Below are positions 59,482 to 64,000 of a stretch of 64,000 bases of DNA, in pieces (positions within the stretch are counted from its first letter, which is position 1; each line of letters starts with the position of its first letter). The stretch lies in the NCBI GenBank assembly GCA_050256135.1, contig JBFWIF010000001.1:17647-81646 (forward strand), in the 5' to 3' direction. Made by a program: the position numbers and the translations under genes. This stretch comes from Acidaminococcaceae bacterium (GTDB lineage Bacteria; Bacillota; Negativicutes; Acidaminococcales; Acidaminococcaceae). The notes beneath the pieces were generated by a model. The model worked only from the letters and a program-made list of their open reading frames with translations, ran no database searches and was not told where the DNA came from.

Positions 59482-59777
59482 AGTACCATAACCTCTCAAA
59501 TGCTGGTTAGATTTTGCTGTTGTATAATTCTGCAGAAATTTACTGAGGCAGTCCGTCGCTTTATTTTTTATTATGATAACCTCAAAATTTTGCTATGTAA
59601 AGATTGAATTCAGTTTCGTATGGTGCAGCTTATTTTCATATAGCATTGGCTGCCAGAAAGTGTTTGGGATAAGGTGACCTTCAATGTTTATATGGACTTA
59701 AGCCTTGTCATGGGATAAAATGAATTAACAAGAAAAATTCTGAGGGAGTTGTATACCACGTGGAAGGAGAACCTTCG

Positions 59778-61079
59778 ATGGGCATCGAGATATTGATTAT
59801 TTTAATTCTGATTATTGCCAACGGCGTTTTTGCTCTTACGGAAATAGCTATTGTCTCTTCGCGTAAGCCTAGGTTGGAAAAATACGCGGCTGATGGCAGC
59901 AGCGGCGCTAAAGCGGCACTGGAGCTGGCCAATGATCCTACTCCTTTGCTTTCGACTGTTCAAGTAGGTATCAGCCTTATTGGCATTGTAACAGGTGCTT
60001 ATGGAGGAGCAACGATAGCACAGGGTTTGACGGAATATTTGAGACCACTTCCATATATTGGGCCTTATGCAGGCACAGCTAGTATGGCGCTTGTTGTTGC
60101 TATTATTACCTATGTTTCCTTGATTATTGGTGAATTGGTCCCTAAAAGAGTGGCTCTTAATAATCCTGAGCCAATTGCTATTGTTATTGCTCGACCTATG
60201 GGATTTTTATCAAAACTTTTTATGCCAATGGTCAAGCTGCTCAGTCTTTCTACGGAATTCGTGCTGAAAGCTGCCGGTGTAAAAAAGCCAACTGATGCAG
60301 GTGTGACAGAGGACGAAATCAAAATCATGATTGCAGAAGGAACGCTGATGGGTACTTTCGAGGAAACTGAGAAGGATATCGTTGGCAGGGTATTTCGGCT
60401 TGGTGATATGCGTGCCGCCGCTTTGATGACACCAAGAACGCAAATCGATTGGATTGATCTTGATAGAGATAACGAATATTTGTGGAATGTGATAACTGAA
60501 AGCTCACATTCGAAGCTGCCAGTAGCTCGCGGCAGTCTTGATGAAATAGTTGGCATTGTTTATGTGAAGGATCTTTTGTCTAAACGTAATGCTGATAAAT
60601 TGCCGATAGAGGAGAACATTGAACAGCCACTGTTTGTTCCCAGAAGTTTGCGTGCTTTCAAATTATTAGAACAATTTCAACAGTCAGGAACCCATGTTGC
60701 TTTTGTTATGGATGAATTTGGCGGTACGATGGGTTTGGTGACGCTCCACGACATTCTTGAACATCTGGTAGGTGAATTGCCTGAGGAAGATGAAGAAGAA
60801 AAGAGTATTGTCAAAAGGGATGATAATTCCTGGCTTATTGACGGGTTGCTGCCTATTGACGAATTCAAAGATTTCTTTGATTTGGAAACAATGCCGGGTG
60901 AAGATAAGGATCATTTTCAGACGTTGGGAGGTTTTGTCACATCCTTTCTTGGGTATATGCCAAAGACAGGTGAAACATTTGAATGGGAAGGCCTAAAGTT
61001 TGAAATAGTTGATATGGATAGAATGAGGATAGACAAAGTAATTGTAACAAAATTATATTTTGATGAGATTACCGAATAA
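59778..61079 (+). CDS. hemolysin-family / CNNM-type protein (DUF21 + CBS pair + CorC_HlyC)
   Basis: N-terminal DUF21 TM domain (ANGVFALTEIAIVSSRK), a CBS pair, and a C-terminal FEIVDMDRMRIDKV transporter-associated domain. I chose the start at 59778 because GGAAGGAG precedes it. Confidence 0.85.
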   Translation: MGIEILIILILIIANGVFALTEIAIVSSRKPRLEKYAADGSSGAKAALELANDPTPLLSTVQVGISLIGIVTGAYGGATIAQGLTEYLRPLPYIGPYAGTASMALVVAIITYVSLIIGELVPKRVALNNPEPIAIVIARPMGFLSKLFMPMVKLLSLSTEFVLKAAGVKKPTDAGVTEDEIKIMIAEGTLMGTFEETEKDIVGRVFRLGDMRAAALMTPRTQIDWIDLDRDNEYLWNVITESSHSKLPVARGSLDEIVGIVYVKDLLSKRNADKLPIEENIEQPLFVPRSLRAFKLLEQFQQSGTHVAFVMDEFGGTMGLVTLHDILEHLVGELPEEDEEEKSIVKRDDNSWLIDGLLPIDEFKDFFDLETMPGEDKDHFQTLGGFVTSFLGYMPKTGETFEWEGLKFEIVDMDRMRIDKVIVTKLYFDEITE

Positions 61080-61286: not shown

Positions 61287-63089
61287 ATGTTATCCAAGAC
61301 GTATACCTTAAAAATTACCAATAGTACGCAGGGGGCAAGAAATATTAAAATTCCTCTTGATGTTGAGGCACAGCCCATACGTATTGTCTCTCAGGCTGGT
61401 GACGCTTATCAGATAATTGATGATAAAACAGGTCTTGCTCCGCATAAGGTACTAGTGAAAAAAGTTGATAACGATTTATATATAAGGATTGAAGACGAAG
61501 GAGATGCGAATATCCCTGACATAATAATTGATAACTATTATGACGATACGCATCATGTACTTGTCGGAGAATACAAACCAGGGCATTTTTCAGATTATGT
61601 TGCTGATGTAGAGGAAAACGCAATTACGACTATGCAGATAGCTGCTGAAAATCAGGAAGGCTGGTTTCATCTGACACATGAAACAAATGATAATGCGCTT
61701 TTAGGTGTTCTCGGCGGTATCGGAATAATTGCTGCGGCAGCTGGTGGTGGCGGCGGAGAAGGCAACCACGCACCTGTAATTACCAGCGATGGCGGCGGCA
61801 GTACTGCCGCTGTAAGCGCCAGTGAAAATCAGGAAACAGCAACAGATGTAAATGCCACTGATTCTGATGGCGATACTATTACCTATAGTATTGTCGGTGG
61901 TGAAGACTCTGGTAAGTTTACTATTGATACAAGCACAGGTGTTTTAAGTTTTACAAGTGCACCAAATTATGAAAACCCGGGCGATTTTAATAGCGATAAT
62001 GCATATGTTGTAATAGTTCAGGCCAGTGATGGCAAGGGGGGAATTGATACCCAAACGATTACGATAAATGTTACTGACGCTAATGATGCGCCTATTATTA
62101 CCAGCAATGGCGGGGGAGAAGAGGCCGCAATTAATGTTCCGGAAGATTCGACGCCAGTAACGACAGTGACGGCAACCGATGCCGATGTGCCGGCGGATAC
62201 TTTGACTTTCAGTATAGTTGGTGGTGCAGATGCGGCAAAATTTACCATTAATTCCAGTACCGGTGAATTAAGCTTTATTACAGCGCCTAATTATGAAGAA
62301 CCTACAGATGCAAATGAAGATGGAATTTACCATGTCAATGTACAGGTAGCTGACGGACATGGCGGAATTGACATTCAAACAATTAGTATTACTGTAACTG
62401 ATGCTAACTTTGCCCCTGTAATCACGAGCAACGGCGGTGGTGACACAGCCACGATCAGCGTTGCGGAGAACACAACGGCAGTGACGACGGTAACCGCAAC
62501 CGATGCTGACCAGCCACCGGATACCTTGGTCTACGATATCATAGGCGGAGCGGACAGCAACAGGTTCGTGATCAATTCAAGTACGGGAGCACTAAGCTTT
62601 AATTCAGCTCCTAACTATGAGGCGCCGTTTGGAGCTGATAACAGTTATGAAGTGATAGTACAGGTTTACGACGGACATGGTGGAACAGATATACAGACAA
62701 TCACGGTCAACGTGACGGACGCGAATGACGCCCCGATCATCACGAGCAATGGCGGCGGAACAAGTGCGGCTGTAAGCATAGTAGAAGATACGACGGCAGT
62801 AACGACGGTAACGGCAACCGATGCCGATGTGCCGGCGGATACACTTACCTATAGCATAACAGGCGGAGCGGATGCGGCGAAATTCACGATCAACTCCAGC
62901 ACAGGAGCATTGAGCTTTATTACGGCGCCAAACTATGAAGCACCTACAGATGCAGGCGGCAATAACGTCTACGATGTCATCGTGCAGGTAAGTGATGGGC
63001 ATGGCGGAACGGATACCCAGGCTATTGCGGTAACGGTGACAGACGGCAACTTTGCACCGGTAATCACGAGCAATGGCGGCTCAAGTTAA
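61287..63089 (+). pseudogene. 5-prime portion of a giant T1SS-type adhesin (BapA/LapA-like prefix + cadherin-like repeats), truncated
   Basis: Prefix domain (IVSQAGDAYQIIDDKTGLAPHKVLVKKVDNDLYI...IIDNYY), then about 4.5 repeats of about 100 aa (AP[VI]ITSNGGG...TA[TS]D.D...L[TV][FY]SI.GG.D..KF.I...TG.LSF...PNYE.P.D....Y.V.VQV.DG.GG.D.Q.I...VTD.N). It ends at ...ITSNGGSS* with no RTX or secretion-signal region. Confidence 0.7.
61770..63089 (+). repeat. tandem repeats of about 300 nt encoding cadherin-like domains
   Basis: Long near-identical stretches recur, for example ACGGCAACCGATGCCGATGTGCCGGCGGATAC at about 62170 and about 62815. Confidence 0.75.
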
Positions 63090-64000
63090 TGGCCTTGAAA
63101 CAGTTCGTTCCTTTTTTTCGTCTTCGATAGTTTTTGCTTTGGCGGATTGTCCTTTTGCATTGTTTTTTATAGCATGTATTGGCATTATTGGCGGTTCAAT
63201 GGGTTGGGTTTATTTGCTGTTATTAATTTTTGGCTTGATAATTGGTATAGTTTTTCAATTTAGAATGAGAGAATTATCGCACAAGGAAATTCAGCGCGGA
63301 CATGAAAGACATGGTTTACTGGTTGATACTATCCAGGGGTCGGAAACAATTCAATCGTCAGGAGCCGAATGGCGTTTTGCGGAAATGTGGCGTGATTTGA
63401 CGACGGCTATTTCAGGTTATACCAATAAAAGCCGTAAACTATCAAATATGACTCAGATTACTACAGGAACATTAGGAACTATAGCTTATGTAAGCGCTGT
63501 TGTGGTAGGTGTTTTTGAAATTGAGGCAGGACACTTAACTACTGGCGGCATCATTGCTTGTACTATTTTAGGCGGGCGAGTGATAGGGCCTGTAGCCCAA
63601 GGTGTACAGCATATGATGCAGTGGCAATATGTTCGTGAGTCACTGCAAATGGTAGATAATCTTTTGGAACATCAACCGACACGCAGCGAAGAACAGGATT
63701 TACTGGCTCCCGAAAGATTAGAGAGCAATATGCAGCTCGAAGGAGTGCGGTTTGCTTATCAAGGAACTCCTGTTCTCAGACTAAACGTTAATCAACTTGC
63801 TTTTAAGGCTGGTGACAGGGTGGCTATTGTCGGTGCCAATGGATCTGGCAAGTCAACTCTCTTAAAAATTATGGCAGGTCTTTACCGTCCTGCCAGCGGG
63901 CAGATTCGCCTGGGAGGAGCAGATCTCTGGGAACTTGAGCCACAGATAATTAACCAATATATAGGCTATTCACCACAGGATGTTCATCTTTTTAAGGGAA
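63073..64000 (+). pseudogene. type I secretion ABC transporter (HlyB/LapB-like) lacking its N-terminal third; runs off the window end
   Basis: The frame opens at 63064. The product aligns from roughly HlyB residue 255 onward (ETVRSFF...LADCPF..., then Walker A GANGSGKST about 256 codons in). There is no C39-like domain and the first TM helices are absent. Confidence 0.7.

What the first reader, a model, noticed from the sequence alone, without database searches (positions are those of the whole stretch)
63040..63110. Abrupt junction: the adhesin repeat array is cut off and fused to the middle of a T1SS ABC-transporter gene
The cadherin-repeat ORF follows its repeat consensus up to ...GCACCGGTAATCACGAGCAATGGCGG (compare ...ATCACGAGCAACGGCGGTGGTGAC at about 62420). 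It then diverges and stops at 63089 (ITSNGGSS*). It has no RTX nonapeptides and no C-terminal secretion signal.

An overlapping frame that opens at 63064, with an ATG at 63073, immediately encodes the region that follows roughly residue 255 of HlyB-type exporters (ETVRSFF...LADCPF...). Walker A lies about 256 codons in. The C39-like domain and the first TM helices are therefore missing.

Two readings are possible: a real deletion removed the 3-prime bulk of a giant adhesin gene plus the 5-prime third of its exporter, or repeat-driven misassembly collapsed the region.
Basis: partly seen in the sequence, partly recalled or inferred. Interest (0 to 1): 0.6.

Follow-up and report, generated by a model that had tools for sequence, protein, structure and literature searches.

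The report
Deletion scar in adhesin secretion operon
A deletion of about 4 kb, real rather than an assembly error, has joined the fifth repeat of a surface-adhesin gene to the middle of the gene for its export pump. It disabled the only type I secretion system of this sewage-associated Acidaminococcaceae bacterium and is an ordinary case of recent gene loss.

Summary
The 600-aa cadherin-repeat ORF (61287-63089) follows its repeat consensus up to CAATGGCGGC (63071-80), then ends as ...ITSNGGSS*. In the +1 frame, the ATG at 63073 opens a 485-aa ABC protein. That protein matches T1SS exporter profiles only from position about 247 onward. It lacks the N-terminal domain, TM1 and TM2.

The junction is a real deletion, not a misassembly. 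The same 100-nt junction occurs in three other public assemblies. Two of them are different strains (6 and 42 SNPs).

Sister lineages in the same genus carry the intact syntenic locus: CNNM, adhesin with RTX C-terminus, TolC-like OEP, ABC of 733-736 aa, MFP, Mem_trans, Rnf. The deletion therefore removed three things:
- the 3' part of the adhesin gene;
- 248 codons of the ABC gene.

This equals 4,341 bp in the closest relative. The breakpoints share 7-10 nt of microhomology, too little for any assembler to join.

The loss is derived and recent. The remnant sits inside a clade of full-length ABCs, with no excess branch length, no elevated dN/dS and no further lesions. No RTX motif and no second HlyB-like ABC exist elsewhere in the genome.

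This is ordinary and of low interest.

The parts
59760..61079 (+). CNNM/CorC-type transporter gene (439 aa). It is the upstream syntenic anchor of the locus.
   Evidence: Pfam CNNM+CBS+CorC_HlyC. 86% identical to the gene just upstream of the adhesin N-terminus in sister genome G003:C92.
61287..63089 (+). Truncated adhesin ORF (600 aa). It has an N-terminal module (aa 1-136, no family hit), a hydrophobic/oligo-Gly segment (aa 137-160) and about 4.4 cadherin-like repeats. The last 3 codons (SS*) are read out of frame from ABC sequence.
   Evidence: The N-terminal 260 aa are 83% identical to the 952-aa RTX adhesin of sister lineage A. It has no RTX repeats and no secretion signal.
63071..63080 (+). 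Deletion junction: CAATGGCGGC. This is the stretch common to the adhesin repeat start (AGC AAT GGC GGC = SNGG) and ABC codons 248-251 (ACA ATG GCG GCT = TMAA). The crossover lies within it.
   Evidence: Window repeat copy at 62739 reads ...AGCAATGGCGGCGGAAC. The ABC site reads ACAATGGCTGCTCAAGT in lineage A and ACCATGGCGGCCCAGGT in G003. The 100 nt around it are identical in L002, L003 and L004.
63073..64000 (+). 5'-truncated T1SS ABC exporter gene. The remnant is 485 aa and ends 530 nt beyond the window at L001:4177. It retains TM3-TM6 and the NBD. It lacks the N-terminal roughly 150-aa domain, TM1, TM2 and the first part of the intracellular loop.
   Evidence: It is 85-87% identical to residues 249-736 of full-length orthologues. 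The intact MFP (393 aa) follows at L001:4164-5345.

Best explanation
This is the scar of one real chromosomal deletion in the adhesin/T1SS operon of an uncultured Acidaminococcaceae species (Negativicutes, seen in sewage and wastewater metagenomes).

The ancestral locus, still intact in sister species of the same genus, was: CNNM | RTX adhesin (N-terminal module, cadherin repeats, RTX nonapeptides, C-terminal signal) | TolC-like OEP | LssB/LapB-type ABC | HlyD-type MFP | Mem_trans ... Rnf.

Illegitimate recombination or replication slippage joined two copies of a 7-10-nt sequence, (CA)ATGGCGGC. One copy lies at the start of an adhesin repeat and the other at ABC codons 248-251. The event excised about 4.3 kb, measured in the closest relative.

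Inferred consequences:
- The 600-aa adhesin stub has no C-terminal secretion signal and cannot be exported.
- The dedicated OEP is gone.
- The ABC remnant lacks the substrate-binding N-terminal domain and TM1-2, so it cannot form a type IV-fold exporter.
- The MFP is orphaned.
- The genome has no other T1SS of this type, so the pathway is lost.

The event is recent on the scale of species divergence and is shared by all sampled strains of the species.

Shown: the junction, its reproducibility, the intact homologous locus, the microhomology and the missing parts. Inferred: the slippage mechanism, loss of function, and fixation in the species.
For: Junction is reproducible:
- It is identical in L002 (ERZ15185769 NODE_1419; 42 SNPs and 2 indels over 11.9 kb versus the window's contig), L004 (ERZ28614878 MUNK22-1; 6 SNPs over 6.8 kb) and L003 (Logan SRR27751818; identical).

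Intact syntenic locus in relatives:
- It is present in 8 contigs of sister lineage A (L005-L012).
- It is present in G003, the MAG Acidaminococcaceae bacterium WFFMC_MAG_561.
- Homology on the adhesin side reaches the junction. Window 62900-63079 is 80.6% identical to G003:C11:4-183.
- Homology on the ABC side resumes at L001:2715 (window 63068), which matches L006:5383.
- The distance between the two sites in G003 is 4,341 bp.

Junction sequence:
- Microhomology of 7-10 nt.

Missing parts are absent from the genome:
- The bin is 98% complete.
- It has no cadherin-repeat DNA elsewhere and no HemolysinCabind motif.
- It has no ABC residues 1-233.
- Only one unrelated TolC, on C5, is present.

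The loss is derived and recent:
- The remnant is nested (100% SH-aLRT) among 15 full-length ABCs of 717-736 aa and is sister to G003 (96%).
- Its end branch is 0.082 against 0.069 for G003.
- dN/dS is 0.047 for the ABC remnant and 0.038 for the MFP, against 0.03-0.09 for neighbouring genes.

No intact allele of this species:
- Among the best hits in 5.8 billion protein clusters there is nothing between 100% and 87% identity.
Against: - A minority intact allele in the populations cannot be excluded.
- L003 is identical to the window and may come from the same sample. The firm count of independent observations is therefore three genotypes, not four assemblies.
- All 13 within-species SNPs in the ABC remnant and MFP are synonymous third-position changes. 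Taken alone, this would suggest continued purifying selection on genes I call dead. They are tightly clustered (5 in 58 nt, 8 in 145 nt at a contig end), which fits recombination tracts or strain mixing.
- The ancestral repeat number is unknown, so the deletion size is an estimate.
Confidence: 0.92

Rival explanations
1. Assembly artefact. Either a repeat-driven collapse or a chimeric join of two contigs created a junction that does not exist in any cell.
For: The genome is a fragmented MAG of 134 contigs. Contigs of relatives regularly break inside the adhesin repeats. No read-level check was possible.
Against: - The same junction appears in three other assemblies from different samples and pipelines, and two carry different SNPs.
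- The two sides share only 7-10 nt, below any assembler k-mer.
- Both flanks show equal divergence (about 76% nt) and the same synteny to one locus in sister species.
- No contig in the 98%-complete bin holds the missing parts.
Confidence: 0.03
2. The deletion is real but polymorphic. An intact allele persists in the same species or population, and the deleted form is one variant. This could be a loss-of-adhesion variant under frequency-dependent or host or phage pressure.
For: Clustered, purely synonymous SNP tracts lie in the ABC remnant (63324-63381) and in the MFP. They look like imports from a lineage about 6-9% diverged in which these genes were under selection. The locus is patchy in the genus: intact in G003, a fragment in G001, absent in G002 and G004-G006.
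Against: No full-length ABC more than 87% identical to the remnant was found among the best hits of 5.8 billion clusters. All three genotypes of the species carry the deletion. An exact search for the species-specific 31-mer just 3' of the junction found no further contigs in JGI metagenomes.
Confidence: 0.1
3. The 485-aa ABC remnant (TM3-6 plus NBD) and the MFP are still expressed and keep some function. In that case the short ABC is a working gene rather than a pseudogene. Translation could start at the ATG that the deletion placed 14 nt before the adhesin stop.
For: - Both ORFs are free of stops and frameshifts.
- dN/dS is as low as in neighbours.
- 13 of 13 within-species SNPs are synonymous.
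- The in-frame native Met249 sits exactly at the junction and overlaps the upstream ORF, as in translationally coupled genes.
Against: - Low dN/dS over a saturated dS (about 2) mostly reflects history before the deletion.
- There is no Shine-Dalgarno sequence before 63073.
- The two short relatives examined are cut by a contig end or a scaffold gap.
- TM1-2 and the N-terminal domain are integral to the HlyB fold (alignment to 7SGR/8DCK over residues 66-695; established knowledge of type IV ABC exporters).
- The SNPs are clustered as in recombination tracts.
Confidence: 0.05

Closest known systems
RTX/T1SS repeat adhesin operons (LapA-LapBCE of Pseudomonas fluorescens, SiiE-SiiCDF of Salmonella, FrhA, MpIBP)
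   Same: The intact form in sister lineages has:
- an N-terminal module;
- tandem cadherin/Ig-like repeats;
- RTX nonapeptides (PF00353) and a C-terminal end;
- adjacent TolC-like OEP, ABC and HlyD-type MFP genes.
JGI annotates related ABCs as LapB.
   Different: - The host is a diderm Firmicute (Acidaminococcaceae).
- The adhesin is modest in size (952 to at least 1,114 aa).
- No LapG protease (PF06035) is present in this genome or in G001 and G003.
- The N-terminal module hits no Pfam or NCBIfam family.
- In the window, the operon is a deletion remnant lacking RTX, OEP and a third of the ABC.
LssB/HlyB subfamily T1SS ABC exporters (TIGR03375, TIGR01846; HlyB structures 7SGR, 8DCK)
   Same: The best NCBIfam match is TIGR03375. 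The NBD has Walker A and LSGGQ. The full-length orthologue aligns with HlyB over residues 66-695.
   Different: The window's copy starts at profile position 247 and lacks the C39-like domain region, TM1 and TM2. Even the full-length orthologue scores 617 bits, below the curated 693-bit cut-off.
Microhomology-mediated (illegitimate) deletions that create pseudogenes in bacterial genomes
   Same: A short direct repeat of 7-10 nt sits at both breakpoints and one copy is retained. The two ORFs are fused out of frame. The remnants are otherwise intact.
   Different: Nothing unusual. One breakpoint lies in a tandem-repeat gene, where the motif recurs in every repeat unit (4 copies remain). This gives multiple targets for such events.

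Membership tests
T1SS ABC exporter, HlyB/LssB type | N-terminal C39-like or peptidase-like domain preceding the TMD | tested here: not met
   Profile matches start at TIGR03375 position 247 of 696 and TIGR01846 position 240 of 694. Residue 1 corresponds to Met249 of the 736-aa orthologue.
T1SS ABC exporter, HlyB/LssB type | Six transmembrane helices per half-transporter | tested here: not met
   Hydropathy places TM1 at 157-178 and TM2 at 186-204 of the orthologue, both before residue 249. The remnant keeps only the later helices. Pfam ABC_membrane matches from position 106 of 274.
T1SS ABC exporter, HlyB/LssB type | Nucleotide-binding domain with Walker A and ABC signature | tested here: met
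   GANGSGKST at residue 254 and LSGGQ at residue 357. PF00005 is matched.
T1SS ABC exporter, HlyB/LssB type | Score above the curated family cut-off | tested here: not met
   The remnant scores 461 bits and the full-length orthologue 617 bits, against a cut-off of 693 for TIGR03375.
RTX T1SS adhesin | Tandem Ig/cadherin-like extender repeats | tested here: met
   PF00028 at 1.3e-42 in 4 stretches, plus Big_9 and Cadherin_4. The DNA period is about 324 nt.
RTX T1SS adhesin | C-terminal RTX nonapeptide repeats and secretion signal | tested here: not met
   The ORF has no PF00353 and neither does the genome. The feature is present in the orthologues of L005-L007 and G003.
RTX T1SS adhesin | Cognate OEP-ABC-MFP genes alongside | tested here: not met
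   Only a truncated ABC and an intact MFP remain. The OEP is deleted, whereas relatives have a 420-429-aa OEP between the adhesin and ABC genes.
LapA-type (LapG/LapD-regulated) adhesin | LapG periplasmic protease (Peptidase_C93) in the genome | tested here: not met
   PF06035 has no match above cut-off in G000, G001 or G003.
LapA-type (LapG/LapD-regulated) adhesin | N-terminal retention module with a di-alanine cleavage site | tested here: inconclusive
   An ...IIAAAAGGGGG segment follows a 136-aa module that is 83-86% conserved in the orthologues of lineage A and G003. No family model matches the module. No structure was predicted.

The most novel reading that the evidence does not exclude
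The deletion did not simply kill the operon. The 485-aa four-helix ABC remnant and its MFP are still translated, by coupling to the adhesin stub through the ATG created at the junction, and are kept by selection for some residual or new role. All 13 within-species SNPs in them being synonymous would suggest this.
Probability: 0.05. Interest if true: 0.5.

Novelty: new member of a known kind. Interest (0 to 1): 0.15.

Why it matters
The main value is for annotation.
- The 600-aa 'cadherin protein' and the 485-aa 'ABC transporter' of this species should be labelled as remnants of one deletion, not as functional genes.
- The contig is correctly assembled at this point.

The finding also gives a clean, datable example of how a surface-adhesin secretion operon is lost in a diderm Firmicute. 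The loss took a single microhomology-mediated event that used a motif recurring in every adhesin repeat.

It shows as well that intact T1SS/RTX-adhesin operons exist in Acidaminococcaceae. A 2016 survey predicted pT4SS and T5SS in Negativicutes and did not mention T1SS there (PMC4793230).

None of this would surprise a specialist.

Tried and rejected
- Search for the missing parts on other contigs of the bin: no cadherin-repeat DNA, no ABC N-terminus and no RTX motif. 'Parts sit on unjoined contigs' is rejected.
- Exact 31-mer scan of JGI metagenome contigs for further alleles of this species found nothing.
- The GTDB genome scan returned only G003 as a close relative.
- A conserved short-ABC family was tested on two short hits. 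P0044 starts at base 3 of its contig. P0036 is split by a 200-N scaffold gap, with the N-terminal part upstream in another frame. Rejected.
- Relaxed selection on the remnants: pairwise dN/dS and tree branch length show none, so the event cannot be dated beyond 'recent'.
- LapG/LapD-type regulation: no Peptidase_C93.
- An IS element as the cause: no transposase lies at or near the junction in the window. One sister contig (L007) has a Transposase_mut gene upstream of its adhesin, but that is unrelated to this junction.
- The promoter and terminator scan gave counts at the level of shuffled sequence and was not used.
Full report
**What is in the sequence**

The ORF at 61287..63089 encodes 600 aa. 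It consists of:
- an N-terminal module of about 136 aa with no Pfam or NCBIfam match;
- a hydrophobic/oligo-Gly segment (ALLGVLGGIGIIAAAAGGGGG);
- about 4.4 cadherin-like repeats (PF00028 at 1.3e-42, plus Big_9 and Cadherin_4).

Repeat starts of the form ATCACGAGCAA[CT]GGCGG recur at 62097, 62421, 62739 and 63063. The last copy follows the consensus through GGCGGC (63075-63080). It then reads TCA AGT TAA, giving ...ITSNGGSS*.

In the +1 frame, TAA at 63061-63 is followed by an open frame with ATG at 63073. That frame runs beyond the window for 485 codons (L001:2720-4177).

The 485-aa protein matches exporter profiles only in their later part:
- Pfam ABC_membrane from profile position 106 of 274;
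- TIGR03375 (LssB-type T1SS permease/ATPase) from position 247 of 696;
- TIGR01846 (HlyB) from position 240 of 694.

Walker A lies at residue 254.

**What lies around it**

The window is C1:17647-81646 of a 2.32-Mb assembly of 134 contigs, estimated 98% complete.

Downstream of the ABC remnant come:
- an intact HlyD-type MFP of 393 aa (TIGR01843, 308 bits, above cut-off);
- a Mem_trans gene;
- an Rnf operon.

Upstream lies a CNNM/CorC gene.

**The intact form of the locus**

The closest full-length relatives of the ABC remnant are 733-736 aa and 85-87% identical. One is named 'MAG: Acidaminococcaceae bacterium'.

Their contigs (L005-L012) all show the same order: adhesin with Cadherin and HemolysinCabind, OEP (420 aa), ABC (736 aa), MFP (392 aa), Mem_trans..., Rnf. 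This order is colinear with the window's downstream genes.

G003 is the species representative of the same genus (MAG WFFMC_MAG_561). Its locus is split across two contigs:
- C92 carries a CNNM gene (86% identical) followed by the adhesin N-terminus (86% identical), and ends inside the repeats.
- C11 carries the adhesin C-terminal part with RTX repeats, then OEP (423 aa), ABC (733 aa) and MFP.

G001 has OEP plus the ABC N-terminus at a contig end. Four other species of the genus have no such ABC.

The ancestral operon is therefore clear. The window lacks three of its parts:
- the adhesin 3' part, including the RTX region;
- the whole OEP gene;
- ABC codons 1-248.

**The junction**

DNA homology to the sister locus runs on the adhesin side up to the junction. 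Window 62900-63079 is 80.6% identical to G003:C11:4-183. Homology resumes on the ABC side at L001:2715, which is window 63068 and matches L006:5383.

The relevant sequences are:
- window: AGCAATGGCGGCTCAAGTTAATGG;
- its own repeat consensus (62739 copy): AGCAATGGCGGCGGAACAAGT;
- the ABC site in lineage A: ACAATGGCTGCTCAAGTCAATGG;
- the ABC site in G003: ACCATGGCGGCCCAGGTAAATGG.

The two parents therefore share (CA)ATGGC(G)GC, 7-10 nt depending on the ancestral state. One copy remains at 63071-63080.

The motif is SNGG in the adhesin frame and TMAA in the ABC frame. That frame difference explains two things. The adhesin frame dies three codons later. The ABC frame begins with a Met, which is the native Met249.

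In G003 coordinates the two sites are 4,341 bp apart. The true size depends on the unknown ancestral repeat number.

This is the signature of a microhomology-mediated (slippage or illegitimate-recombination) deletion. The mechanism is inferred. The sequence relationships are shown.

**Real or artefact?**

Three lines of evidence nevertheless make misassembly very unlikely.

1. The exact 485-aa and 600-aa products, and the identical 100 nt around the junction, occur in three other public assemblies:
   - ENA ERZ15185769 NODE_1419 (L002);
   - ENA ERZ28614878 MUNK22-1 scaffold_8519 (L004);
   - Logan SRR27751818 (L003).

   L002 differs from the window's contig by 42 SNPs and 2 indels over 11.9 kb. 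L004 differs by 6 SNPs over 6.8 kb. L003 is identical and may come from the same sample. At least three genotypes therefore carry the junction.
2. The parents share at most 10 nt at the breakpoint, below any assembler k-mer. A join requires reads that span it.
3. Both flanks are about 76% nt-identical to, and syntenic with, one locus of the sister species. The contig is therefore not a chimera of two organisms.

The missing pieces are also nowhere else in the bin:
- no other cadherin-repeat DNA;
- no ABC residues 1-233;
- no HemolysinCabind motif.

**Age and polarity**

In a tree of the 26 best ABC hits, the remnant is nested (100% SH-aLRT) in a clade whose other 15 members are full length (717-736 aa). 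It is sister to G003 (96%). Its end branch is 0.082, against 0.069 for G003.

Pairwise dN/dS against lineage A is 0.047 for the ABC remnant and 0.038 for the MFP. Neighbouring genes give 0.03-0.09, and dS is saturated at about 2.

There are no secondary stops or frameshifts. The truncation is thus derived, confined to this species and recent relative to species divergence.

Among the best hits in 5.8 billion protein clusters there is nothing between 100% and 87% identity. No intact allele of this species is on record.

**Consequences (inferred from established knowledge of T1SS)**

- Substrates are recognised through a C-terminal signal and RTX region, which the stub lacks.
- The ABC remnant lacks the N-terminal domain, TM1 (157-178) and TM2 (186-204) of a fold that aligns with HlyB 7SGR/8DCK over residues 66-695.
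- The dedicated OEP is gone. One other TolC-like gene exists on C5.
- No other HlyB-like ABC is present in the genome at E<=1e-50.

The species has most likely lost this adhesin and its secretion route.

**An observation that does not fit neatly**

All 13 within-species SNPs in the ABC remnant (5, at 63324-63381) and the MFP (8, at L001:4436-4580) are synonymous third-position changes. Other genes on the same contig show 5 nonsynonymous and 4 synonymous changes, and the adhesin stub shows none.

The 13 SNPs are tightly clustered, and the MFP cluster sits at the end of contig L002. I read them as recombination tracts or strain mixing from a lineage about 6-9% diverged, not as proof that the remnants are still selected. 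They keep the 'remnant still functional' and 'intact allele still circulating' rivals alive at low probability.

The criterion was a conserved family of short ABCs starting at this point. It is not met. Of the short hits, two were examined:
- P0044 starts at base 3 of its contig;
- P0036 is an artefact of a 200-N scaffold gap, with the N-terminal part upstream.

**Comparison with known systems**

The intact operon in relatives works like the RTX-adhesin T1SS operons (LapA/LapBCE, SiiE/SiiCDF). It has repeats, RTX, OEP, ABC and MFP. JGI names related ABCs LapB.

It is not LapA-type in regulation, since no LapG (PF06035) is present. Its N-terminal module matches no curated family.

The window's copy fails the defining features of both a T1SS exporter and an RTX adhesin, because the deletion removed them.

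A 2016 survey of secretion systems predicted pT4SS and T5SS in Negativicutes and did not mention T1SS there (PMC4793230). The intact operon in Acidaminococcaceae is therefore mildly noteworthy, but that is a separate matter from this junction.

**Verdict**

It needs extending, because the OEP gene was also lost. This is an ordinary, recent, microhomology-mediated pseudogenising deletion, of low interest beyond correct annotation.

Noticed in passing
window 63324-63381; L001:4436-4580 (MFP, beyond the window): Strains L002 and L004 differ from the window by 5 clustered SNPs in the ABC remnant. L002 also differs by 8 clustered SNPs in the MFP. All 13 are synonymous third-position changes. Other genes on the contig show 5 nonsynonymous and 4 synonymous changes. 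They look like recombination tracts or strain mixing at a contig end.
   Followed up: partly
L006:255-3113, L007:1634-4492, L009:3-3347: The intact adhesin of sister lineage A is 952 aa in two samples, but a 5'-incomplete copy of at least 1,114 aa occurs in another. This is either strain-level variation in repeat number or partial collapse in assembly.
   Followed up: no
L007:282-1448: In one sister-lineage contig a Transposase_mut (IS256-like) gene lies directly upstream of the adhesin gene, where the window and G003 have CNNM.
   Followed up: no
G003:C197:1780-2235 (L027): The sister species has a second, paralogous adhesin whose N-terminal module is 39% identical to the window's. The window's genome has only one.
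   Followed up: no
window 61287-61766: The 136-aa N-terminal module plus hydrophobic/oligo-Gly segment of the adhesin is 83-86% conserved in the orthologues of lineage A and G003. It matches no Pfam or NCBIfam model. No LapG protease exists in these genomes, so it may be a retention module of an undescribed type.
   Followed up: partly
genus level (G000-G006): The T1SS/RTX-adhesin operon is patchy within the genus: intact in G003, fragmentary in G001, a deletion remnant in G000 and absent from four other species.
   Followed up: partly
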